DNA of 64,000 bases from Candidatus Binatia bacterium (GTDB lineage: Bacteria; Desulfobacterota; Binatia; Bin18). Of this stretch, positions 39,226-50,737 are shown in pieces (position 1 is the stretch's first letter; each line of letters starts with the position of its first letter). The position numbers and the translations under genes were made by a program. The DNA lies in assembly GCA_963666315.2 (NCBI GenBank), contig CAXXHG010000046.1, positions 64,001 through 128,000 on the forward strand. Reading direction: 5' to 3'. Under the pieces are notes generated by a model. It was not told the origin of the DNA and ran no database searches. It saw only the letters and a list, made by a program, of their open reading frames with translations.

Positions 39226-41009
39226 GTAGACAAAACCGGTAGCTCAATAAAGGACGGATGCTCCTCAGTGTGATGCACCACATTGGTGGCGATGTGAATG
39301 TCAGCCTGCGTGTCATTCGCGAGCACTGCGTTACCACTATTTGTGTTACGCGCACGGCGGGGGAAGTTACTGCTGGTGACATCCACTTGCAAACGGCTGT
39401 CTGCCGGAAAAGTGTGATGAATATCAGCCAGGTGAATCTGGACTTGGTAAACTTGATCAGGTTCTAAATGCTGCGGCTTCGTCGTGGCGTTGCGATACAT
39501 CGCCCGCACCACACCATCCATGAGCAGCAGGGCGCATCCGTCCGGTTGCAGCTCAATCAATTTGGCAATGAAATCCGTATCGCGGCAATTCGATTGGACG
39601 TGGAGCGTGACAGAGACCGCTCCTGCTATCGTCATATCTTCATCCAAAACCTCACTCCGGTAGCTCAAACCATAGTTCGGCAAGACTTGCACTTGGCGTT
39701 GATCCTGAGGCCCACTCGCGATCAACATATTGCGACCGCCGAGCGTTGGGATGGGACGGTTGGGGTCATATATATAGCTTCTCTCGTCGCCGCCTGGACC
39801 GTCAGCGCTGAGGCGTCCGTCACCAGTCAGATACAGCCGCTGCTGGACAGTCCCCAAAGGCGGCCACTGGTCAGCGTGGCGCCAATCATTGGCCACGTAG
39901 TTTTTTTGATCTGCGGCCCAGGCGCGCGGCGCATAGTATACTGCCGGCTCATCCATGATTGCGGACGGTAGTCCCTTGAGCCAGTAATCAAACCACTCAA
40001 AGTAGGGATCACGCGGCCAGAAATTGCGCTCATACACAAAGTGATGGCTGTTTGGCCCGATCCATAGCCGCTGGTTTCCGACTCGGGACTGGATCTCGGT
40101 AAAGGCGGCTAACACGCTGGTTTGGAAAATATCGAACCAGGTCGTAACGTGAAAACCTGGGACATTGATCGTCGCGCGGAAGTTGTGACGGGCGCGAAAA
40201 TAGTCAGGAGCGGGATGACTAATAATTTCGTCAAGATAAGGCTGCCATACAGAGAAGTCGGGATACCCGCTCAGGGGTAAACGCATCCATTCGTCCGTAT
40301 CGATGAAGGGCGGGTCTGCATGTCGGGCAGCATCAAGCGCCGTATAGCGCACGTTCGCCGAAGCGGCTGCCGTGTCCAGTTCTTGTTTACTCAGTCCGTG
40401 CTGCTGCAGCATAGCCTCACGGTGCGAACGTGAAAGACCCGGAATATTCCGGGCTACCCACAGCCATAGCCGCTCCATCTGGATGGATTGGCCCTCATAG
40501 ACCACGTCGTCATAGATACTCGATCCACCCACTTGGGTGAAAAACGCGCGTACACTGGGATGACACTGCGAGGCCGCGGCAAGCGCCGTGGTCGCAGCGG
40601 CGGATGATCCTGACAGTCCGACGTGTTGATTCGACCAGGGCTCACTCGCTATCCATTCGAGGGTGTCGTATCCGTCTACTGCATCGTCGCCATACACATG
40701 GTCTACTCCTTCAGAGCCATAGCGTCCGCGTGTGTCTTGGTAGACTGCCGCATTGCCGCGGCGCACGATCTCGCGCCAGCCACGTAGGAGTGAGCCTCGC
40801 AGAGGGGCCTTTGCATCCGGCAGCCAGCCTTTCGTGCAGTCGGTTACGTTCTGGCCTTCAGGTGAGGTGATGCCGTAGGGCGTGCGTTGCACAATGACCG
40901 GATAACGAGGTCCGCCGCGTTCGGGCAGGAAGACAAACGTATTCAGCCGTGCGCCATCACGCATAGGCAGCATCACTTGGAAACACCGCGCCCCGTCAAC
41001 AATTTCCAT
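39222..41009 (-). CDS. CocE/NonD family hydrolase
   Basis: MRDG, RTPYG, QDTRGRYGSEG, DGYDTLEW, SSNFPR; nucleophile motif GSSAAA. Confidence 0.92.
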   Translation of the reverse strand: MEIVDGARCFQVMLPMRDGARLNTFVFLPERGGPRYPVIVQRTPYGITSPEGQNVTDCTKGWLPDAKAPLRGSLLRGWREIVRRGNAAVYQDTRGRYGSEGVDHVYGDDAVDGYDTLEWIASEPWSNQHVGLSGSSAAATTALAAASQCHPSVRAFFTQVGGSSIYDDVVYEGQSIQMERLWLWVARNIPGLSRSHREAMLQQHGLSKQELDTAAASANVRYTALDAARHADPPFIDTDEWMRLPLSGYPDFSVWQPYLDEIISHPAPDYFRARHNFRATINVPGFHVTTWFDIFQTSVLAAFTEIQSRVGNQRLWIGPNSHHFVYERNFWPRDPYFEWFDYWLKGLPSAIMDEPAVYYAPRAWAADQKNYVANDWRHADQWPPLGTVQQRLYLTGDGRLSADGPGGDERSYIYDPNRPIPTLGGRNMLIASGPQDQRQVQVLPNYGLSYRSEVLDEDMTIAGAVSVTLHVQSNCRDTDFIAKLIELQPDGCALLLMDGVVRAMYRNATTKPQHLEPDQVYQVQIHLADIHHTFPADSRLQVDVTSSNFPRRARNTNSGNAVLANDTQADIHIATNVVHHTEEHPSFIELPVLST

Positions 41010-41216
41010 AATTGACCTTTCTCGTGAAGCAAACGTCCGTCAATCCTACGGAGTGGGGGCTGTGAATCTAGAGAATCCAGTACAGTATGGACCAAGGCAA
41101 GCTGGTTGAGGGCGTTAGTCGGTATCTTCGCTGCTCTGGGCAGGTCGCGGTGCAACCGGCTCCGGATTTAGAGCTCGGTATTTCGGTGGACTCCACGGGT
41201 TATCTCACAACGACAT

Positions 41217-41468
41217 CTACAACTGATCGTAATGTCCACCGTTTGCAAAGATATAAATATATCGATCGTCGAATTTATAAATGACACGATCTTTCTGGCT
41301 CATTCGGCGGAACGATTATGGTTCAGGGGCTCTGGTTTTCCAATTCCACTACTGGGGTCGCCACGCAACATCTCTTTCAATATACGGCACAGTGCTTTAT
41401 GAAGCTTTTTGTCTTTTGCTCTGAGGTCTTCGTAAATGGCCCAGGTGTTTCCTTCAAACACCAGTGAT
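41217..41468 (-). pseudogene. yoeB: Txe/YoeB toxin, 3' part separated from its start by the integrated element
   Basis: SLVFEGNTW...GIGKPEPL.HN / RRMSQKDRVIYKFDD...GGHYDQL*; small deletion-frameshift near 41313; missing ATG AGA found at 49488-49493. Confidence 0.9.
41445..41468. repeat. att core, left copy
   Basis: GTGTTTCCTTCAAACACCAGTGAT, identical to 49465-49488. Confidence 0.92.
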
Positions 41469-41500
41469 ACGCTTTAAAAATAGGCTGAAACCACTGTAAC

Positions 41501-41758
41501 TTAGTGAATAGAAATAACTTTCTCCGTCTGTCCCAAAACCGGCTTCTCAGGGGTGTCGTGAAAATTCGCGGGACTTCTTCCTGGGAATCGGCGTTCCATC
41601 TGCTCCATTGCCCCTCTTTTGTGGTCTGGCGACAGGTGCGCGTACCGCATGGTCATGTTTATATCAGCATGTCCCATGAGTTCCTGCACGGTGCGAATAT
41701 CAACGCCGCTCATAACGAGCCGGCTAGCAAAGGTGTGTCGCAGGACATGGGGGCCAAT
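41501..41758 (-). pseudogene. Tyrosine recombinase/integrase C-terminal remnant
   Basis: PHVLRHTFASRL...VQELMGH...MTMRYAH (HxxR, H, Y); no upstream integrase homology. Confidence 0.9.
41558..41576. repeat. Putative integrase arm-type site
   Basis: GTGAAAATTCGCGGGACTT, identical at 49333-49351. Confidence 0.75.
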
Positions 41759-41954
41759 CGGGGCAATCACACGCTTGCTATAGGACTGCTTGATCGATCC
41801 GAACTTGATTACCGATGCGTTGCGGCGACAGTGGCTCCATATTCGCCCTGTACGGCACGATCTCGATGCGACCCATAACCGATTCGTTCCTCGACACGCG
41901 CGCAACGGAAATGATCGAGCCGATAGCACCAGACATCGCGCGAGTTCATTCAGA

Positions 41955-42644
41955 TTATTTGACCGTGCCTAATCGTGACCCGGACTGCTCCATGACGGCC
42001 ACCCGCGCCGCCAGTTCCTGGATCATCCTATCTTGCTCAATCGTGTACAGCGTCAATTCCTCCACCTTGGCCAACAGCTTCATCTGCATGTCCGTCATAT
42101 TCACGCCCGTCTCGCTTATCTCCGCTGCTGACGGAACGTTGGGCAGGTGTTTTTCGTGTGCAACGAATGTAGCCAGTTCTGGCAGTGGCATAAGCAGATA
42201 GTCGGGCTCGAAGACGTAGTCAGGCACGTTCAGGACCGTACTTCCGGAGATGAAGCTGCCCTCGGCACGGATGTGCCCGTTGACGTGAAGCTCGTCCGTA
42301 GGGTTGGTCGTGCCGATGCCAATGCGGCCCTGCGCCTGGTCAAAGGTCATGACTGCGATACTGCCAGCACGCTGCAGAAGCAAATCTTGCGACGAATTCC
42401 CCTCTTGTACAAATTGCCACTGCATCGTATTGCCTGTGGAGAACCGCATGGAAAGATCTGCCCCTGTCGAGGCACGGTCAAACTTCAGGAATCCGTTAGA
42501 CGCCTCCATCAATATCTGCCCATTGACATGCAGTTTCACCTCTGGGTTCGCCGTCCCAATCCCGACGTTGCCCCCACTATCAAGATCGAGCTGCGCAAAG
42601 ACAGGGGAGGCTACAAGTAAGAACAATACAGCTGTAATCAACAT
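41955..42644 (-). CDS. Secreted tail-fibre-like protein with C-terminal chaperone-like domain
   Basis: Signal peptide; GNVGIGT.NP and GRIGIGT.NP; PDYVF...HLP.VPSA.E...LL.KVEELTLY. Confidence 0.8.
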   Translation of the reverse strand: MLITAVLFLLVASPVFAQLDLDSGGNVGIGTANPEVKLHVNGQILMEASNGFLKFDRASTGADLSMRFSTGNTMQWQFVQEGNSSQDLLLQRAGSIAVMTFDQAQGRIGIGTTNPTDELHVNGHIRAEGSFISGSTVLNVPDYVFEPDYLLMPLPELATFVAHEKHLPNVPSAAEISETGVNMTDMQMKLLAKVEELTLYTIEQDRMIQELAARVAVMEQSGSRLGTVK

Positions 42645-42852
42645 AACTGACTCCTTATAGGTTAGTTTGTTGTCTCGCTACTTAACACGAAAACAGAGAA
42701 CTTTCCATTTCCGCCCGTAGCGCCTACGTGCAAAGGCAAGACGGCTTGTGACGTTTGCGCACATCACTCACGACCTCGCCCACGTCACGAGGCCCTGAGT
42801 AGTTTAAGCAGGCGGAACAAATGGAGGCCGCGCAGAAGAAAGCCAAACGGAA

Positions 42853-42882
42853 ACCGCCCGGGGAGGAGGGGCCCCGGGCGGT
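42853..42882 (-). terminator. Putative intrinsic terminator
   Basis: ACCGCCCGGGG/CCCCGGGCGGT 11-bp stem, T-rich tail on the minus strand, 53 nt after the repeat-gene stop. Confidence 0.45.
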
Positions 42883-42935
42883 GAGTCGGCGCGCCTCTGC
42901 AGAGTCTGCGCCTTCACAGTGTAAACACGGTTGGG

Positions 42936-43780
42936 CTAGGGAACAAGTTCAAGCGTTGTCTCAGTGACATTCCCCCCTCCCCCGCTGACCGTGGACGCCC
43001 ACCAGCTCGCCGTGTTTCCCCATCCTCCGTTGACCGAGGACTGCCACCCGCTCGCCTCATTTAGATGTCCGCCGCTGACCGAGGATGATTTCCCACTCGC
43101 TGTGTTTTGGTCGCCTCCGCTGACCGAGGACTGCCACCCGCTCGCCGTGTTGCCGCCTCCTCCGCTCACCGAGGACCCGATCCCGCTCGCCGTGTTGCCG
43201 TATCCTCCGCTCACCGTGGAGTCGTACCCACTCGCCGTGTTCCAGCCGCCTCCGCTCACTGTGGCATGGTCCAATGTCGCCGTGTTTTGCCGTCCTCCGC
43301 TCACCGTGGACGCGAAACCGCTCGCGACATTAACTTGGCCCCCGATTATTGCGGCACCGAACCCGGTGATCGTGTTACTGTCGCCAGTCACAAGACCGCT
43401 GCGATTCGTGTAGGTGTGGTACGCCCCAACAATCACATTATGGGAGCCCGTCTTTTCGCTGCCATCTTTGTGGTCTTCATTATAGCCGACAATAAGATTG
43501 CCGAGGCCATTTGGCACCGTGTTGTATTGTGTGGAATCCCCGGTCCCGTCTTGTACATGCAAATTACACCCATCAACGTACAGGCCATTCCCGGCTTGAT
43601 AGAGGCAGTCCATCGCGTCTTGTTTGGTCTCCACCTCGGCCTTTAACGCTGTCACTTCCGATTGCAGCGCTCCGAACCGAGCCTCAAGGTTTTCCTGGCT
43701 CTGCCGTCGTGAGCCGCCACGTTCCCGGCGCTACCCATCATGGTTATCATCGCTATCGCCGACAGAGTTCGCTTCATCAT
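42936..43780 (-). pseudogene. Secreted 14-aa repeat (SVSGG..NTASG) adhesin-like protein with a 5' frameshift
   Basis: SD GGAGG plus signal MMKRTLSAIA; frameshift ~43700; NGLGNLIVGYNE, GSHN; about 8-9 tandem 42-bp repeats at 42975-43330. Confidence 0.8.
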
Positions 43781-44115
43781 GGGGTCCTCCTGATACCGCC
43801 CAGTAAATTGCTGTGTGTCACAGTGTGGGCGGGATACGAAGGAATAGAGCACAACCCGTGCCAACCGCTCAGGAATGAGCACGCTCTTTCTGTATTTCAA
43901 GTTATTTCAATATGTTATAGCGTCAAAGCACGGTGAAGGTAGGCAGACGGGTCCCCAGCGGTCTCATCCATCGAGACCGTTCTGATATATCGCTTTGATG
44001 AGTTATGGCGAAACGATATGGCCGCTTGAAGTCGCCAATCAGCGCGCCGGTAGGGGTATTTCGATAGTCGTGTGGGGAGCCGGCGGCCTCCACTGCCAAG
44101 ACGCCCGAGTCCTCA

Positions 44116-44745
44116 TTGAGGTGCGACTCGCCAAAGTATCTAGAAAAGAAGAAGGCGAAATATCATTTGGACAGACAGTCCCGAAGAGCACAATGTCTCA
44201 CCGCCGGTTCTAAGAACCAGGAAGTGTGTTTCCGTACTGACAGGTTAGGATTGAACATCAACTGTTCAGGCGTCGGCTATGGGCGGATTTGTAGCCACCT
44301 TCCTGGCCTGGACGGCTATCTCCGGGGATTTACCGTCAATGAGAGACGACTCAAGCTGTCGCCCGAGCATCAGGCAATGTGTCGTGGGTGGCTACGGCTC
44401 GCAAATGACGAGAACGAGTCGATGCATTGGCTATCGATCTACGACGTGATCATCAAAAAATTGCGCGGTGGAAAGGCGATTCCGGAGCTGGTTTTTTCAA
44501 TGGCACACTTTCCTGCTCACTGGTCAGCCCGGATTTACGAAGACATTTATCCGGGCCGGAAGGAGAAAAGCGCCGCGGAGAAGAGCGGTATGGGCAGAAT
44601 GCCACTGTACCTGTGCGCTTTGTGCGACCTAGCTGAGGAGGGTAAGGTGGAAGGGATACTCGATCACGAAGGAGGATACCGTTGGCGCCGCATCTTACAG
44701 CGAGACCAAAGGCGACCCGAAGTCGTCAAGGGTGAACTCACCTAG
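44116..44745 (+). CDS. Hypothetical protein
   Basis: 209-aa ORF, no recognised motif; start uncertain. Confidence 0.3.
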   Translation: MRCDSPKYLEKKKAKYHLDRQSRRAQCLTAGSKNQEVCFRTDRLGLNINCSGVGYGRICSHLPGLDGYLRGFTVNERRLKLSPEHQAMCRGWLRLANDENESMHWLSIYDVIIKKLRGGKAIPELVFSMAHFPAHWSARIYEDIYPGRKEKSAAEKSGMGRMPLYLCALCDLAEEGKVEGILDHEGGYRWRRILQRDQRRPEVVKGELT

Positions 44746-44808
44746 AAACGTGGGCTTGTTTTGAAGAGCGTAGGTATGGAAGGGAACCGCATGGAAGATC
44801 GATTGTTC

Positions 44809-44862
44809 CACATCATGCACATCATGCACATCATGCACATCATGCACATCATGCACATCATG
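44809..44862. repeat. Perfect tandem repeat (CACATCATG)x6
   Basis: Six exact 9-bp units. Confidence 0.97.
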
Positions 44863-45017
44863 CATGAAAGAAAGTGAATGGAGGTTAGAGTTTTGACGGT
44901 GCGGATACTCGGAAATATTTGGAAACGAACAATGCCTAACAAGAAGAAAAGAGGAGAGAGCATTATGAAGTGGGAATGGACGCTGAAGTCAGCATGTACA
45001 TTCTCGTGTCTGAGTAA

Positions 45018-45183
45018 TCACGCAGCCGACTGACACAGACTATTTTCCAAAATATGGCGGATGGTCGAGGCGTACCATGTTCGCCCGTTCTTCGTCGGCA
45101 CCTTGCGGGTGTTGAGTGTCCCAGCAATCTGCCGCAAGGTATGCCCCTCCTGGCGTTGTTGCCGTATCCATTCAACCGTCTTT
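45018..45183 (-). pseudogene. Serine recombinase (Recombinase-domain) C-terminal fragment
   Basis: G.TLRQIA..LN...VPTKNGRTWYASTIRHIL. Confidence 0.7.
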
Positions 45184-45228
45184 AGCTGGCCAGCACCAGC
45201 CCTGAATTGACGGTTCGCCTGCAAGGAC

Positions 45229-45801
45229 TCATTGGGTCTTCTGTCGCCATTCCCGTGCCATTTTCTGGGCCTCTGCCACCTGCGCAGGGCGGATCTTTGC
45301 TTCGACAGCAGCCCGACGTTTAACTGCCTGGCTGCGATCATATCCGGTTAAGTGCGCCGCGGCGAGATTATACCACTTGTGTGCCTGCACATAATCCTGC
45401 ACTACGCCCCGGCCGTTGTCGTACATGACTCCGAGGTTGTTCTGCGCCGAGGCCTGTCCTTGATCGGCGGCGAGCCGGTACCACTCCACGGCTGCCTCAT
45501 AATCCTGCACCACGCCCTGGCCGTTGTCGTACATGACTCCGAGGCTGTGCTGCGCCCCGGCCTGTCCTTGATCGGCGGCGAGTCGGAGCCACTTCCCGGC
45601 TGCCTCATAATCCTGCACCACGTCTTGACCGGCGTCGTACATGCCTCCGAGGTTGCTCTGCGCCTCGGAGGCACCTCGGGTGGCTTGCGCTCGAAGCGCG
45701 GCAATGTCATCAGCCTGATCACCGCAGCCCTGCGCCAGCATCAGGCTAAGCAGCAGCAGGAAAACCATACCCATTCGTCCTTGGTTCTGAAGATATTGCA
45801 T
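45229..45801 (-). CDS. Sel1-like repeat lipoprotein
   Basis: LAQGC lipobox; AQ.NLG.MYD.G.GV.QDY..A..WYRLAADQG repeats. Confidence 0.92.
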   Translation of the reverse strand: MQYLQNQGRMGMVFLLLLSLMLAQGCGDQADDIAALRAQATRGASEAQSNLGGMYDAGQDVVQDYEAAGKWLRLAADQGQAGAQHSLGVMYDNGQGVVQDYEAAVEWYRLAADQGQASAQNNLGVMYDNGRGVVQDYVQAHKWYNLAAAHLTGYDRSQAVKRRAAVEAKIRPAQVAEAQKMAREWRQKTQ

Positions 45802-45852
45802 TTCTTACAGAGGCCTGCTCAAGGATACACAGCAGTCCATGTTGTCAAGCTG

Positions 45853-46206
45853 TTACATACACCGGCCGGTCACAAAATCGACCCCGCGGCCCTGACAGCG
45901 CATAATCGCTTGCCCCGGGTCCTGGCGGGGGAGCGAAAACGGCGGCGCCACATCATACGGACTCACTTGCCGTCCCTGGGATCCAGAACAATTCCTGGTC
46001 GCAAAATCGACCCCCAGACCGGCCGCACCACAGCTTGCCACCAGATCGCCATCCGTGGGGCTGGCGTGAGCGGGAGACACACCGGCGGGGGCGGAGTGAG
46101 CGGCGGTCCTCAGCGATCCGGTCCACAGTGAAAAATTACAAGACGAGCCCAACAGCAGCACTGGCCCACAAAGGATGGTTCCGAAGATGACACGCCTGCT
46201 CAGCAT
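45853..46206 (-). CDS. Small secreted/lipoprotein with a duplicated Cys motif
   Basis: SD GGAGG; hydrophobic leader ending GSSC; two C..G.GVDF.T..C units. Confidence 0.55.
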   Translation of the reverse strand: MLSRRVIFGTILCGPVLLLGSSCNFSLWTGSLRTAAHSAPAGVSPAHASPTDGDLVASCGAAGLGVDFATRNCSGSQGRQVSPYDVAPPFSLPRQDPGQAIMRCQGRGVDFVTGRCM

Positions 46207-46368
46207 GCCCCTCCGTGCTCCACACTTTTTCCCGCTCACTCCTGACACCGCCGGATACTGGCCTGAGCTTTTATGCGGCCCGGGCGTACTGCCATGTACT
46301 CCTCCATCTACGTGAAACGACGTTCTCTCAGCCTCAACTACTTAACCCGAGGAAATATCGGTCACTGT

Positions 46369-46995
46369 CTACGTCTCAGCGAACTCAATCCTCAACGGCG
46401 TGCATTGCTGACCATTGGGTCTCTGGCCATCGATTTCTATATCATACGGACACGCCGAGACTGCAACTAAGCAGTCCATCAGAGCCCTGAGTGCAATATA
46501 TTCACCCGCTTGGGTTGCCGCAGGCCGACCATCAACGGACCCGTCGGCCCGCACGCGGGTATATTGGAACAGGTTAATCGGATCCGGCACATCAAGATAA
46601 CCAAGACCGTAAGGCTCCACGGCCAGGGTGAGATTGTCTCGACAATTACGATGGTTGACAGCTCCGGCAGCCACATATAAGGCGCTGCTGCACGGAGCAA
46701 AAAGGGCGTCGTGTACACCGTTCGCCTGATCCTCAACAATCTCGAACATGGGGTGCTGGAGGTTTGAGTAGAATTTACTGTTGACCGTAAAATGCATGGA
46801 ACCACTACCAATCAAAGTATTGAAGTTCACGGTTTCACCCGTAGAGAGTTTTTCTGCCAGGCTATGGAGGTGAAAACATACGAAATCGCAGATCTGCTGG
46901 CCCTCCACGTCGATAATCCGAATCGTTTCACCTTGCCGGACCACACAGGCTCCCCCTTCGGTTGCCGGAATAAGAATGTCTCGTTTGTCTGTCAT
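46369..46995 (-). CDS. Urea-carboxylase-associated family protein (DUF1989)
   Basis: IIDVEGQQICDF, GVHD, HRNCRDNL, VPDPINLF, SACP. Confidence 0.9.
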   Translation of the reverse strand: MTDKRDILIPATEGGACVVRQGETIRIIDVEGQQICDFVCFHLHSLAEKLSTGETVNFNTLIGSGSMHFTVNSKFYSNLQHPMFEIVEDQANGVHDALFAPCSSALYVAAGAVNHRNCRDNLTLAVEPYGLGYLDVPDPINLFQYTRVRADGSVDGRPAATQAGEYIALRALMDCLVAVSACPYDIEIDGQRPNGQQCTPLRIEFAET

Positions 46996-47170
46996 GGCTC
47001 AATCCTCCTGCCCCTTTTATTTTTTGCTGACGGTTCCCGATCACTGTCGAAAAGTTTTCATCTTTACGCAACCCCGGTCTTTTCCTTGACACTCGGCGCA
47101 AGACAGAGCTAGGGTCCGTCTCAAGGGGAGAGCTCACCTGAGTATCTCGCGAAAGGAGGAGGAGAAGACC

Positions 47171-48388
47171 ATGACTAGGGGAATGACCAAAAGTGGTTTT
47201 ATGGCAGCCCAGCTGCCGTTGTCCCAAGCCTCGACATTACCATCTCACTGTTACACATCACGCGAGTTTTATGAGCGAGAAGTCGAGCACATCTTCTTGA
47301 AAGAGTGGCTGTGCACCGGGCGGGTAGATCAGGTGGAGAAACCTGGAGATTTTTTTACATTGACTCTATTAGGAGAACGACTGATCGTCGTGCGCGATGA
47401 GGAAAATCAGGTCCGGGTATTATCGAATGTCTGCCGCCATCGCGCAACGCAAGTCGTCGAAGGACAGGGGAATCGGCGCACTTTTGAGTGTCCCTACCAT
47501 GGTTGGACGTACTCCTTGAAAGGAGAACTCATTGGCGCGCCTGAGATGCAACGGACCGACAACTTTGACAAAAACCAGTGTCAATTAGCCTCGCCCCGGG
47601 TCGAGACGTGGGAGGGGTTCATCTTTGTCAATTTTGATCAGCAGGCACAGCCGCTTGGGCCCAAGCTCACTCCCCTCTCCCAGCGATTGGAGCACTATCA
47701 TCTCAGTGAGATGCGGACCGTCAAAACGTTGGTGTATGAGAGCAACTGGAACTGGAAAATTATGGTTGAGAACTATATGGAGGCCTACCACGTTCTTGGC
47801 CTGCATAAGGGACCGCACGACGTGATGCCCGTCCATTCCGTCCATGATGCTTCGCCTCAGGCGTACAATATTACCAACACGGCGTATAACGGCGTGTTTG
47901 GGGTCATCTGGGGGGATTTTGCTACACCGGGCGCAACGTTTTATTCGCCGGGGGTGACGGGAGCCGAGTCCGGTAAGACCGAGTGGTTGCCTTCTCCTTT
48001 CCCGTTGATTGAGAGCTTATCCGCCGAAGAACGCCAGCGCGGCGACTTCGTTAATATCTATCCAACGCATCTCTTTACGCCGCTGCCTGACGGCATGTTT
48101 TACGGACAGATCTTGCCGCAGGCGGCCGACCGGATTACGTGGAGTCTGACACTGTGCTTTCCTCCGGCAGCCATGGAGATGCCAGACTTTGAGCAACAGC
48201 TCGAACAGGCGGTCGAAGGGCTCGAGTACATAAATAAGCAGGATATGTGGGCGTGTGCGTCGGTCCAGCAGGGGTTAGCTTCGCGCATGGTGCGGTCTGG
48301 ACGCTACTGCCACTTGGAAGAATGCATCCATCAGCTGGCTCAATACGTTATGGGCCGGATGCAAGACGAAGGACGTCTCACCCAATGA
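47171..48388 (+). CDS. Rieske non-heme iron oxygenase alpha subunit (choline monooxygenase/CntA-like)
   Basis: CRHR..CPYHGW, NWK..VEN..EAYH..LH, D...C.SVQ.G. Confidence 0.93.
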   Translation: MTRGMTKSGFMAAQLPLSQASTLPSHCYTSREFYEREVEHIFLKEWLCTGRVDQVEKPGDFFTLTLLGERLIVVRDEENQVRVLSNVCRHRATQVVEGQGNRRTFECPYHGWTYSLKGELIGAPEMQRTDNFDKNQCQLASPRVETWEGFIFVNFDQQAQPLGPKLTPLSQRLEHYHLSEMRTVKTLVYESNWNWKIMVENYMEAYHVLGLHKGPHDVMPVHSVHDASPQAYNITNTAYNGVFGVIWGDFATPGATFYSPGVTGAESGKTEWLPSPFPLIESLSAEERQRGDFVNIYPTHLFTPLPDGMFYGQILPQAADRITWSLTLCFPPAAMEMPDFEQQLEQAVEGLEYINKQDMWACASVQQGLASRMVRSGRYCHLEECIHQLAQYVMGRMQDEGRLTQ

Positions 48389-48718
48389 ACCGCACGGCGG
48401 GCAGCACGTGCTTTTACCACTACCTTTTCCGCCTTTTGGAATAATGCTTCACTTTGCTGCCGGCGCGCCAGTTCCTCTTTGATGCTGTCAATATTCTGTC
48501 TGACAGCACCCGCTAGCGCACGCGGGAGCCGCTTCATTAGCAGGGGGTCCCAATGGCGGAGAAAAGAAAAATCATGAGTAGTCAGAGGGTCAACGCGTCG
48601 GCCCTGTGACTGCCCTTGGTGACTGTGAAGTGGCTGGGTGTGCTTTGCGGCGTTTGGAAATAAGAAAAGGTGGGAATTGATGGCAATTGATTTTTCACAG
48701 ACCCTCCCGTGTCCTCCG

Positions 48719-49080
48719 CTACTCGCACTTTTTCAGTCCCTTCTGAATAAGTCCGGACAAATTCGCCAGGGGTCTTCGTCCAGTTGCCGCAACGGTGCCC
48801 GCGAGTGCCTCGTAACATGTTGCGGTGTGATTTCCACAGGGAGGAATATGGAGCGCGGTAGCGTGTCCTTCGCGTAGGAGAACTTCATTAACAACAGTTG
48901 CGCCGACAATCACATAAGCCAGTGTACGGCCATATCGATCTTTCGCATTCTCCTCACAGTCATCAAGCGTGACGGTCTTTCCTTCAACAAGGGCGACATT
49001 ACGTGCTGTTGCCGCACCGAATCCCTTGTCTCCACGCTCAGGGGTATTGATAACCTGGAATACCGCAGCGCGTTCTCGTA
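48719..49080 (-). pseudogene. Thermonuclease (SNase-like) remnant
   Basis: INTPE, DRYGRTLAYV, VNEVLLREGHA; N-terminal DGDT region not in frame. Confidence 0.7.
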
Positions 49081-49332
49081 AACTCGACGCCCAAGCACGG
49101 TTTCTGGAAGAGAGAGTACCGGACGTCATTAGCCCTCTAGAAAGTCTCACCGCTGACGTTTGCCGTGTGGCATACCACGCTGCCAGGTATAGGTTTGCCT
49201 TTTGTCAGGTCGAGTCTGCCAGATAAACTTGCGGGGACGAGGAAGCGGCACCTTGAAGCGGAGGGGCTGAGTCAGAATACGCCGGTCACCTCAAGCCTCG
49301 CCAGGAGTCTCCGTTTTACTCTCGCGCCTGTT

Positions 49333-49351
49333 GTGAAAATTCGCGGGACTT
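49333..49351. repeat. Putative integrase arm-type site
   Basis: GTGAAAATTCGCGGGACTT, identical to 41558-41576. Confidence 0.75.
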
Positions 49352-49464
49352 TCACGGGAATTCGGGGGGAATGGAGAGGAATGGGGAGTAGTCACCGTGG
49401 CCCGTAACCCCTGTAGAATTAAAGCTTTTTGCCTCTTTTCGGGGGGTTACGAAACTCACGGTTT

Positions 49465-49488
49465 GTGTTTCCTTCAAACACCAGTGAT
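49465..49488. repeat. att core, right copy (yefM 3' end / yoeB 5' end)
   Basis: Identical 24-mer; yoeB ATG at 49491-49493 on the minus strand reads MRSLVFEGNT. Confidence 0.92.
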
Positions 49489-49746
49489 CTCATTGAGTTC
49501 CTCAGGGGTAGGTGAGTATCCAGAACCCTTAACGTGGGTACGCAGGGGACTGGCAATCTGCCTCATCAGACTGCTATTCTGCAAAACATAGAGCGTTTCT
49601 TCCTCCCGCTCCCAGTCCTCCGCAACCACCACCACAAAATCGTCACCACCACGTCGTGTAACCTTGAGTGGAAGGTGCCGGTCCACTATTTGTTCAACAA
49701 AGGATTTTAAATGTTCTCTAAATTTGTTTACACTGACACTATCTAC
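49474..49746 (-). CDS. yefM: YefM antitoxin (expected start codon reads GTA; possibly inactive)
   Basis: DSVSVNKFREHLK..VTRRGG..FVVV..EDWEREEETLYVLQN; overlaps the yoeB start. Confidence 0.85.
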   Translation of the reverse strand, partial: VDSVSVNKFREHLKSFVEQIVDRHLPLKVTRRGGDDFVVVVAEDWEREEETLYVLQNSSLMRQIASPLRTHVKGSGYSPTPEELNEITGV

Positions 49747-49762
49747 CTTGGCAGCCTTTTTG

Positions 49763-49783
49763 ATGTACTGAATTTGTGTACAT
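49763..49783. promoter_or_regulatory. Putative YefM operator
   Basis: ATGTAC-N9-GTACAT just upstream of yefM; TGTACA cores typify yefM operators. Confidence 0.6.
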
Positions 49784-49912
49784 ACTAGTCTGAGCACTTG
49801 GACAAAGCAATGCAACGTACCGGATGTGTCCGCATAGGTCGCACAGGCCACGCGACGATCATCTCATTTCGTCGGCTGTCGAAAAAATGCGGAGATCTTA
49901 TATTCTCAGGAC

Positions 49913-50737
49913 ATGAACGAACTGCAATCGCAATTCCGTAAAGACGGCGTCGTCTTCATTCAAGGCGCGCTCGACCGCAACACGCTGAAACTAGCCGAGG
50001 CAGCCTTTGACTGGACCTTCAATAATCCGGGGCCTGGCGCTGGGGACCTTCTCATCGGCACACCGGGTACGTTTTATCAGGACCAGGCGAACCCGGAGTG
50101 TTTCGATGCCTACCGTGAACTCTTACAGGACACCTGCATCCCTGATCTCGTAGCCGGGCTACAGGCGAGTGATAACGTATGGTTCTTGTATGAGCAGATC
50201 TGGTTTAAGGACGGTGGCAATACACGGCGTACACCCTGGCATCAGGATCTCCCCTATCTCCCCGTCGAGGGCGATGATCTCGGCGTTTTGTGGACGAACT
50301 TGGATCCGGTCACGCAGGATACGTCACTGGAACTCGTCCAAGGCTCGCACCGTGGCCCGCTATTTAATCCCACGGCCTTTAACCCGGACGACGTAAGCGC
50401 TGCTTTGTTCGACGAGGGAGTCCTGCCGCCCTTGCCGGATATCGAGGCGGCACCTCACGAGTGGCCCATCGTCTCGTGGGCGATGCAGCCCGGCGATGTC
50501 ATCATCTTCCATCCCGCCATGCTGCACGGTGGCGCGCCGACCTACGCAGGCCAGCGTCGCCGGACGCTGTCCGTCCGTTTTTTCGGCGATCATACTTTCT
50601 GCTCGGACCTACCCCACAAAGGCTTAGCCGACGTCGACGGACTCAAGCACGGCGGCGACCTGCATCCGCTGAAGAAAATGGCTACCGTTGCGCCAGGGAC
50701 GCCGTTTCGTCATCCCGATTTTCCCAAACTCAGATAA
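49913..50737 (+). CDS. Phytanoyl-CoA dioxygenase (PhyH) family
   Basis: TPWHQD, GSH, PGDVIIFH..MLHG, RRRTLS. Confidence 0.92.
   Translation: MNELQSQFRKDGVVFIQGALDRNTLKLAEAAFDWTFNNPGPGAGDLLIGTPGTFYQDQANPECFDAYRELLQDTCIPDLVAGLQASDNVWFLYEQIWFKDGGNTRRTPWHQDLPYLPVEGDDLGVLWTNLDPVTQDTSLELVQGSHRGPLFNPTAFNPDDVSAALFDEGVLPPLPDIEAAPHEWPIVSWAMQPGDVIIFHPAMLHGGAPTYAGQRRRTLSVRFFGDHTFCSDLPHKGLADVDGLKHGGDLHPLKKMATVAPGTPFRHPDFPKLR

What the first reader, a model, noticed from the sequence alone, without database searches (positions are those of the whole stretch)
41217..49783. Integrative element whose attachment site is the yefM/yoeB overlap, so insertion splits the toxin gene
Seen: the 24-mer GTGTTTCCTTCAAACACCAGTGAT occurs at 41445 and 49465. 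Removing the ~8.0 kb between the copies rejoins ATG AGA TCA CTG GTG TTT GAA GGA AAC AC (from 49493) to the rest of a YoeB toxin (41444-41217), directly behind yefM. The core contains the last 15 nt of yefM, so the antitoxin ORF survives while the toxin loses its start. The core is dyad-symmetric (GTGTT-TCCTTCA-AACAC, 7-nt spacer), as tyrosine-recombinase cores are. An integrase C-terminus (HxxR/H/Y) ends ~30 nt from the left copy. Known: such integrases mostly target tRNA/tmRNA or housekeeping genes and usually restore the target. Inference: this integrase family uses a TA toxin gene as attB, disarming it on entry and rebuilding it on excision, as an anti-addiction or excision-triggered toxicity switch.
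Basis: partly seen in the sequence, partly recalled or inferred. Interest (0 to 1): 0.88.

Follow-up and report, generated by a model that had tools for sequence, protein, structure and literature searches.

The report
Dead mobile element splitting a toxin-antitoxin pair
A decayed 8 kb integrase-borne mobile element sits exactly in the overlap between an antitoxin gene (yefM) and its toxin gene (yoeB), an unusual landing site, but element and toxin are both broken, so it is a fossil and not a working switch.

Summary
An exact 24-bp direct repeat (41445-41468 and 49465-49488) occurs only twice in the 5 Mb genome. It flanks 8.0 kb, has an integrase 3' end 32 nt from the left copy, and lies on the yefM stop / yoeB start overlap.

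Three results support a true site-specific insertion:
- Two close paralogues of the integrase show the same geometry: stop, 32 nt, 7 nt, (G/T)TGTT, 7 nt, AACA-like.
- A conserved 140-nt distal arm with a second copy of an integrase-tail motif is shared with sister elements in the same genome.
- 13 of 18 homologous yefM loci from other taxa carry the uninterrupted overlap followed by a full yoeB.

- Sister integrases (55-77% identical) sit at tRNA-Ser(UGA) and at the ends of GNAT, folD-like and CinA-like genes. Toxin-antitoxin (TA) targeting is therefore not a family trait.
- The integrase is reduced to its last 100 of 370 codons. yoeB also has a 13-nt frameshifting deletion, and yefM reads GTA at its canonical start.
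- The TA cassette is itself accessory: the two nearest relatives lack it at this locus.
- No empty site, attP or second occupied site was found.

Verdict: a real but inert insertion at a new kind of target. The proposed switch function is untested.

The parts
41217..41444 (-). yoeB remnant (B' side): codons from about 11 to the stop, with a 13-nt frameshifting deletion near 41313/41314
   Evidence: Pfam YoeB_toxin matches in two frames. DNA comparison with 5 intact homologues.
41445..41468 (.). Left copy of the 24-bp direct repeat (integrase-proximal junction). On the - strand it reads ATCACTG GTGTT TGAAGGA AACAC.
41469..41500 (-). 32-nt spacer between the integrase stop and the repeat (P side of the element)
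   Evidence: Same 32-nt spacing in paralogues L038 and L041.
41501..41803 (-). Integrase remnant: the last 100 codons plus stop (HxxR, H and Y region only)
   Evidence: Pfam PF00589, E 4.4e-17, profile positions 123-170 of 172. tblastn shows it equals residues 271-370 of the 370-aa paralogue at 74% identity.
41558..41575 (-). Copy 1 of the 18-nt motif AGTCCCGCGAATTTTCAC, inside the integrase tail (codes SPANFH). Candidate arm-type site.
41782..42709 (.). 928-nt segment 100% identical to G000:C7:95999-96926. The integrase is cut off exactly at its edge. It contains the 229-aa ORF 41955-42644 (-).
42936..43655 (-). 239-aa repeat protein (45-nt periodic repeats). 77-83% identical to DNA inside the sister element on contig C19.
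45018..45341 (-). Serine-recombinase fragment (Recombinase domain, profile positions 5-52 of 102)
45229..45801 (-). Sel1-repeat protein. A Sel1 gene also sits in the sister elements on C24 and C27.
46369..46995 (-). DUF1989 protein: a second copy of a gene found across the genus (80% identical to G000:C1)
47171..48388 (+). Rieske / ring-hydroxylating oxygenase alpha subunit, cargo. 77-90% identical to genes at other loci in genus members.
48719..49150 (-). SNase-like nuclease. A homologous gene lies next to the distal arm of the C14 element (86%).
49326..49464 (-). Conserved distal arm (P' side). 90% identical to the C27 element's arm. Holds an imperfect hairpin and copy 2 of the 18-nt motif (49333-49350), 114 nt from the repeat.
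49465..49488 (.). Right copy of the 24-bp direct repeat. Contains the last 15 nt of yefM, including its TGA.
49474..49746 (-). yefM antitoxin gene, by homology. Its canonical start position (49746-49744) reads GTA. The frame stays open upstream to a GTG at 49851.
   Evidence: Pfam PhdYeFM_antitox, E 9.1e-13. Start comparison with 6 homologues.
49491..49493 (-). Orphaned ATG of yoeB. It now opens a 24-codon frame that runs into the distal arm.

Best explanation
The region 41469-49464 is the decayed remnant of a site-specific integrative element from a family with several copies in this genome. The one intact sister element, on contig C27, is satellite-like: it carries an integrase, a Prim-Pol/D5 primase-helicase and a small-terminase-like gene. 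A tyrosine integrase recombined the element's attP with an attB that is the yefM-stop / yoeB-start overlap of an accessory yefM-yoeB cassette.

On the - strand the attP reads: integrase tail with arm motif, 32 nt, ATCACTG GTGTT TGAAGGA AACAC, then a 140-nt conserved arm with a second arm motif. Strand exchange most probably took place in the 7-bp spacer TGAAGGA, which holds the yefM stop codon.

The result is that yefM stays complete on the right junction. yoeB loses its ATG, its translational coupling and its promoter, and now lies downstream of the integrase on the left junction. The attP carries no replacement start for yoeB.

Shown: the repeats, their uniqueness, the shared geometry, the homologous uninterrupted TA loci, and the decay. 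Inferred: the exact crossover spacer, the arm-site role of the motif, and the reason for the target. The suggested reason is that a dual-coding overlap is slow-evolving and the toxin is dispensable, so the site is a safe and durable landing place.

After insertion everything decayed. The integrase lost its first 270 codons at the edge of a 928-nt duplicated segment. yoeB lost 13 nt, yefM's start became GTA, and the interior became a mosaic. The locus is now inert.
For: - Repeat: exact, 2 copies in the genome, none expected by chance.
- Position: the integrase remnant ends 32 nt from the left copy.
- Geometry: the window, G000:C27 and G009:C298 all show stop + 32 nt + 7 nt + (G/T)TGTT + 7 nt.
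- Distal arm: it is 90% identical over 145 nt to the C27 element's arm.
- Arm motif: the 18-nt motif occurs 9 times exactly in the genome (control 0). It comes in same-strand pairs that bracket elements on C27, C24, C19, C14 and C46.
- Sister elements: they have their own flanking repeats at other targets. On C24 it is 47 nt covering the 5' half of tRNA-Ser(UGA). On C27 it reaches the stop codon of a GNAT gene.
- Uninterrupted homologues: of 18 homologous yefM loci from other taxa, 13 have ATGAGATC..TTTGA followed by a full 88-91-aa yoeB starting MRSLVFEG. This is what removing the 8 kb would recreate.
- Independent assembly: a contig from another study (X24) spans 40800-41533 with 0 differences and bridges the left repeat. 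X24 and X19 contigs also bridge the integrase/928-nt junction.
- Synteny: the outer flanks (peptidase S15, PhyH) are adjacent in G009 and G024.
Against: - No empty site with this TA pair, no attP and no second occupied yefM/yoeB site was found. The exact 22-mer core gave 0 hits in genome contigs, metagenome contigs and viral contigs.
- None of the 18 foreign TA loci carries the arm motif, and no excision joint appeared in 4 runs.
- The two nearest relatives have no TA at this locus. The insertion may therefore have happened in another genome, with the whole block moving here later.
- No listed contig piece bridges the right repeat.
- The interior is a mosaic and partly repeated elsewhere in the genome, so its present content need not be the original element.
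- This is a single instance.
Confidence: 0.8

Rival explanations
1. Adaptive toxin switch or anti-addiction device. The integrase lineage targets TA toxin genes in order to disarm them on entry and re-arm them on exit. This would benefit the element, or free the host from a competitor's addiction module.
For: The attP carries no replacement start for yoeB, unlike the sister elements, which keep tRNA-Ser and the GNAT gene whole. The TA cassette lies in accessory DNA, so it could belong to another mobile element. Integrases that disrupt genes of other mobile elements without a replacement sequence are described (PMC10111431, passages read).
Against: There is one decayed instance only. 0 of 8 related integrases examined lie at a TA locus. 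Excision would restore a complete autoregulated operon in a cell that already holds antitoxin, so no killing is expected (inference). Toxin loss with antitoxin retention also arose by other routes in 3 of the 18 homologous loci (L053, L056, L063); a fourth decayed locus, L071, has lesions in both genes. This fits ordinary TA decay.
Confidence: 0.08
2. Accidental insertion at a secondary (non-cognate) site by an element whose normal target is elsewhere, for example a tRNA gene.
For: Related integrases use tRNA-Ser and other genes. No second yefM/yoeB insertion was found.
Against: The repeat is 24 nt and perfect. It covers both dyad arms plus 7 more nt, whereas a secondary site would be expected to share little beyond the roughly 7-nt overlap (established behaviour of lambda-type integrases, recalled; compare the passage in PMC10111431). 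The core has no likeness to the tRNA-Ser or GNAT cores beyond TGTT..AACA.
Confidence: 0.07
3. Assembly artefact: the contig is chimeric through the 928-nt perfect repeat shared with contig C7, so the two junctions do not bracket one element.
For: 41782-42709 is 100% identical to C7:95999-96926 and the integrase breaks exactly there. The assembly has 47 contigs at 92% completeness. No listed read-derived piece bridges the right repeat.
Against: Both outer flanks are neighbours in G009 and G024, which a chimera would not predict. X19 and X24 contigs cross 41782 with 0 differences. Both repeats are in direct order at about 430 nt from the syntenic flanks.
Confidence: 0.04

Closest known systems
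Tyrosine-integrase genomic islands and satellites that integrate into tRNA or protein genes (Islander/TIGER-type islands; PICI and P4-like satellites)
   Same: Flanking direct repeats and an integrase next to one end. A dyad core with a 7-nt spacer. Sister copies in the same genome at tRNA-Ser(UGA), with the repeat ending in the anticodon stem-loop. The intact sister has an integrase, Prim-Pol/D5 primase and a TerS-like gene.
   Different: The target is the overlap of a toxin-antitoxin pair and no replacement sequence restores the cut gene. The copy in the window has lost its primase, its terminase-like gene and most of its integrase.
Regulated gene integrity / active lysogeny: helper-embedded PICIs in prophage late genes (PMC10111431, passages read); SpyCI in mutL (PMC4129442, abstract in search listing); skin and SP-beta (recalled)
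   Same: The element interrupts a gene and carries no replacement in attP. Precise excision would in principle rejoin the gene.
   Different: There is no evidence of excision or of any regulation. Here both the recombinase and the target are dead. The interrupted gene is a toxin whose loss is harmless while the antitoxin remains.
YefM-YoeB type II toxin-antitoxin modules (E. coli prototype, recalled)
   Same: PhdYeFM antitoxin domain. YoeB toxin domain. Antitoxin placed first, with an ATGA-type overlap in 13 of 18 homologous loci.
   Different: In the window the toxin is split by 8 kb and frameshifted, and the antitoxin lacks a canonical start codon.
TA modules carried as cargo that stabilise integrative elements, e.g. 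mosAT of SXT (PMC2654960, abstract in search listing)
   Same: A TA pair is physically associated with an integrative element.
   Different: There the TA is inside the element and keeps it in place. Here the TA is outside and is the landing site.

Membership tests
Tyrosine recombinase / phage integrase (PF00589) | Sequence homology to the catalytic domain | tested here: met
   E 4.4e-17, profile positions 123-170 of 172. 74% identical to residues 271-370 of a 370-aa paralogue that has SAM-like and catalytic domains.
Tyrosine recombinase / phage integrase (PF00589) | Complete catalytic set (first Arg and Lys as well as HxxR, H and Y) | tested here: not met
   Only the last 100 codons remain. 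No N-terminal piece of a close relative exists elsewhere in the assembly.
Site-specific integrative element (genomic island) | Direct repeats flanking the element, with the integrase at one end | tested here: met
Site-specific integrative element (genomic island) | Uninterrupted attB in a reference genome | tested here: inconclusive
   The uninterrupted overlap is seen only in distant homologous TA loci (47-71% YefM identity, 16-21 of 24 core positions). The nearest relatives lack the TA. The exact core is absent from three collections.
Site-specific integrative element (genomic island) | Circular or attP form, or an excision joint | tested here: not met
   No joint between the two repeats in 4 runs. 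These are contigs, which drop rare variants, so absence is not shown.
YefM-YoeB type II TA | Antitoxin and toxin domains in operon order with overlapping stop and start | tested here: met
   Domains found. The overlap is recreated only if 41469-49488 is notionally removed, and the same overlap is intact in 13 of 18 homologous loci.
YefM-YoeB type II TA | Intact toxin reading frame | tested here: not met
   Split by 8.0 kb and carrying a 13-nt deletion.
Regulated gene integrity switch | Excision restores a working gene under regulation | tested here: not met
   Truncated integrase and a second lesion in yoeB. Regulation is not testable with these tools.
PICI / P4-like satellite | Integrase plus primase-helicase plus packaging-related gene | tested here: not met
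   Met for the sister element on C27. In the window none of the 10 ORFs scanned has a primase or terminase domain.

The most novel reading that the evidence does not exclude
An integrase lineage has evolved the yefM/yoeB overlap as its cognate attB and deliberately carries no replacement for the toxin's start. Entry then converts a horizontally spreading addiction module into a lone antitoxin. It also places the 5'-clipped toxin frame, which has a GTG at codon 5, behind the integrase gene. Toxin expression would thus be tied to the element's own induction, making this a mobile element that hijacks another selfish element's toxin.
Probability: 0.07. Interest if true: 0.8.

Novelty: new variant of a known kind. 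Interest (0 to 1): 0.42.

Why it matters
If an active copy exists, a toxin-antitoxin overlap would be a new class of integrase target. It is short, held constant by two overlapping reading frames, spread by horizontal transfer and dispensable. That is of interest for how integrases pick and switch targets and for conflicts between mobile elements. The sister elements in one genome share arms and core geometry but differ in the 7-nt spacer and flanks. They form a small natural series for studying target switching. As it stands, the locus in the window is an inert fossil and changes nothing about the host's biology.

Tried and rejected
- **Apparent yoeB similarity beyond the core.** 41402-41417 resembles 49422-49437 in the same register (family D13). 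I first read this as a vestige of yoeB in attP. That stretch lies in the distal arm that is conserved in the C27 and C14 elements, which have other targets, so it is probably chance in A-rich sequence.
- **Second integrase-tail-like motif as a leftover of a tandem element.** Rejected because the order is core, then arm, then motif, not motif, 32 nt, core. The same order recurs on C27, C24 and C14.
- **Exact core scans.** The 22-mer gave 0 hits in genome contigs, metagenome contigs and viral contigs. The arm motif gave 0 hits in viral contigs. Records of the window's own genome may be left out of these scans.
- **Run X20.** It had no cover on 40800-41732 and 49508-50100 while holding the interior nearly unchanged. 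Low-depth contigs cannot show absence, so I drew nothing from it.
- **Rfam.** No match at E up to 0.1 on 40800-50200.
- **YefM in the host's class.** 4 of 401 genomes matched at E up to 1e-8, counting G000, and the others were 29% identical. No close TA relative was found with this query.
- **Literature.** Four searches found no paper describing an integrase with attB in a TA pair. The paper on regulated gene integrity (Mageeney 2020) is not held. Its text and its target-gene tables, and the supplements of PMC10111431, could list such a target and I could not see them.


Full report
**1. Observation**

The 24-mer occurs at 41445-41468 and 49465-49488, exact and in direct order. No third copy exists at up to 2 mismatches, and none is expected by chance. 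In the whole 4.99-Mb assembly (47 contigs) there are these two copies only.

On the - strand the right copy holds the last 15 nt of a PhdYeFM-type antitoxin gene (Pfam E 9.1e-13), including its TGA. An ATG 5 nt upstream of the repeat (49493-49491) opens the frame MRSLVFEGNT.... The left copy continues that frame as ...FEGNTWAIYEDL..., a YoeB_toxin match (E 1.3e-7, profile positions 1-49 of 80).

A tyrosine-integrase 3' end (PF00589, E 4.4e-17) stops 32 nt from the left copy.

**2. Evidence that this is a real site-specific insertion**

The genome holds a family of related elements.

- **Related integrases.** A search of the 28 genomes of the genus with the integrase remnant gave generic recombinase hits in 28 of 28. 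Close relatives (55-77% identity) occurred only in G000, G009, G020 and G024.
- **State of the copies.** In G000 only the copy on contig C27 is full length (370 aa). The copies on C14, C24, C46 (the window) and C9 are fragments.
- **Shared geometry.** The three closest members are the window, G000:C27 and G009:C298. All show stop codon, 32 nt, 7 nt, (G/T)TGTT, 7 nt, then AACAC, AACAA or AGAAT.
- **Arm motif.** An 18-nt motif in the integrase tail (AGTCCCGCGAATTTTCAC) occurs 9 times exactly in the genome (control 0). It comes in same-strand pairs that bracket elements. One copy is in the tail, about 89 nt from the repeat. The other is in a conserved distal arm, 113-125 nt from the other repeat.
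- **Distal arm.** The window's distal arm (49326-49469) is 90% identical to that of the C27 element. It folds into an imperfect hairpin (z = -2.0). I read the two motif copies as candidate arm-type sites; this is inference.

**3. Targets of the sister elements**

- On C24 the flanking repeat is 47 nt. It covers the 5' half of tRNA-Ser(UGA) up to the anticodon stem-loop.
- The same tRNA follows related integrases in G024 and G020.
- On C27 the repeat reaches the stop codon of a convergent GNAT gene.
- In G009:C298 the neighbour is a folD-like 3' end. In G000:C14 and G009:C471 it is a CinA-like 5' end.
- TA targeting is therefore not a family property.
- The intact C27 element carries a Prim-Pol/D5 primase-helicase, a small-terminase-like gene, Sel1, TPR and S8 genes. 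Its integrase has SAM-like and catalytic domains. This is a satellite-like make-up.

**4. The TA cassette is accessory**

The outer flanks are a peptidase S15 gene ending at 41009 and a PhyH gene from 49913.

- In G009 (91-93% flank identity) these flanks lie about 215 nt apart with no TA.
- In G024 (86-90% identity) a 205-aa ORF fills the gap.
- A seawater run holds a roughly 90%-identical relative with 859 other letters between the flanks.
- With the YefM query, 4 of 401 genomes of the class matched at E up to 1e-8, counting G000, and the rest were 29% identical.

The TA pair is thus foreign DNA in a variable intergenic spot. Whether the element entered it here or in another genome cannot be told.

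**5. Homologous TA loci elsewhere**

Eighteen loci were recovered, 9 from species genomes (47-69% YefM identity) and 9 from metagenomes (60-71%).

- 13 have the uninterrupted overlap (ATGAGATC...TTTGA) and a full yoeB of 88-91 aa beginning MRSLVFEG (or a close variant).
- One is cut by its contig end.
- Four are decayed. L053 is truncated at codon 20 by a repeat-like insert. L056 has a roughly 130-nt insert with inverted ends at the same junction. L063 breaks inside the core region and has no yoeB. L071 has an altered toxin C-terminus and a stop in yefM.
- Core identity to the window ranges from 16 to 21 of 24 in the intact loci.
- None of the 18 carries the arm motif. None of the first 9 has a related integrase within the fetched flanks.

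These loci show what the empty site looks like. They also show that loss of the toxin with retention of the antitoxin is common by other routes.

**6. Decay**

- The integrase remnant equals residues 271-370 of 370.
- It is cut exactly at the edge of a 928-nt segment (41782-42709) that is 100% identical to C7:95999-96926.
- yoeB has a 13-nt deletion relative to 5 intact homologues. This explains the frame change between the two Pfam pieces.
- yefM reads GTA where 5 of 6 homologues have ATG or GTG at that position; the sixth (L058) starts two codons downstream. An upstream in-frame GTG exists but has no obvious ribosome-binding site.
- The interior shares modules with sister elements: a repeat protein with C19, Sel1 with C24, and SNase with C14 and C47.
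- It also holds extra copies of genes found across the genus. DUF1989 and the Rieske oxygenase lie at separate loci in other genus members.

**7. Assembly**

- A contig of another study (X24) spans 40800-41533 with 0 differences and bridges the left repeat.
- X24 and X19 contigs cross 41782 with 0 differences.
- No listed piece bridges the right repeat, and no repeat-to-repeat joint was reported.
- Synteny of the outer flanks argues against a chimera.

**8. Mechanism and meaning**

The best reading is integrase-mediated recombination in the spacer TGAAGGA. This keeps yefM whole and cuts yoeB from its ATG and operon. Unlike its sisters, this attP brings no replacement for the cut gene.

The simplest rationale is inference only. 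The overlap is constrained by two reading frames and travels with a widely transferred cassette, and the toxin is dispensable. That makes the site a safe and durable target.

The switch or anti-addiction idea is not excluded but has no support. Excision would recreate an autoregulated pair in a cell that already contains antitoxin.

**9. Comparison with the literature**

Passages of PMC10111431 state three relevant points. attP usually carries a replacement sequence. Exceptions are read as regulated gene integrity. Integrases can target other mobile elements.

Four searches found no description of an attB in a TA pair. The key catalogue paper and all supplements could not be read, so priority is uncertain.

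Noticed in passing
window 41782-42709 and G000:C7:95999-96926: A 928-nt segment with sharp edges, carrying a 229-aa ORF with no Pfam match, is 100% identical at two places in the genome. A third partial copy (94%, 156 nt) lies at C7:91821-91975. It may be a recently moved unit or a gene-conversion tract.
   Followed up: partly
G000:C24:113156-117629 (L062): The tRNA-Ser(UGA) element has as its flanking repeat the 5' half of the tRNA, and the integrase reads towards the tRNA start. As I recall, islands usually duplicate the 3' part.
   Followed up: partly
G000:C27:48952-62338 (L060): A 13-kb satellite-like element with Prim-Pol/D5, a TerS-like gene, Sel1, TPR, an S8 peptidase and an intact 370-aa integrase. 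Its ~75-nt imperfect flanking repeat includes the last 16 nt of the integrase gene, which hints at an earlier occupant of the same site.
   Followed up: partly
L056 6283-6425 (Candidatus Thiosymbion MAG) and L063 1690-1700 (metagenome contig): Two other homologous yefM genes are cut off from yoeB within a few bases of the same overlap. One has a ~130-nt insert with inverted ends; the other meets unrelated DNA.
   Followed up: partly
window 44800-44871: A 9-nt tandem repeat, CACATCATG, in about 7 copies. It reads HDV repeats on the - strand.
   Followed up: no
window 42979-43383: 45-nt periodic repeats inside a 239-aa ORF, with weak beta-roll and adhesin-repeat matches.
   Followed up: no
window 41024/41423, run X19: One contig (depth 8, 41 letters on its shorter side) joins 41024 to 41423 with 21 other letters between. 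This would be a variant lacking most of the yoeB remnant.
   Followed up: no
window 46369-48388: The DUF1989 and Rieske oxygenase genes are adjacent here. In other genus members their 77-90% identical counterparts lie megabases apart, and G000 has a second DUF1989 copy on C1.
   Followed up: partly
G000:C19:41236-41550 and 49142-49446 (L061): Two ~300-nt imperfect direct repeats. Each holds a T-arm-like tRNA or tmRNA 3' end followed by the family's distal arm. ARAGORN finds no complete tRNA gene there.
   Followed up: partly
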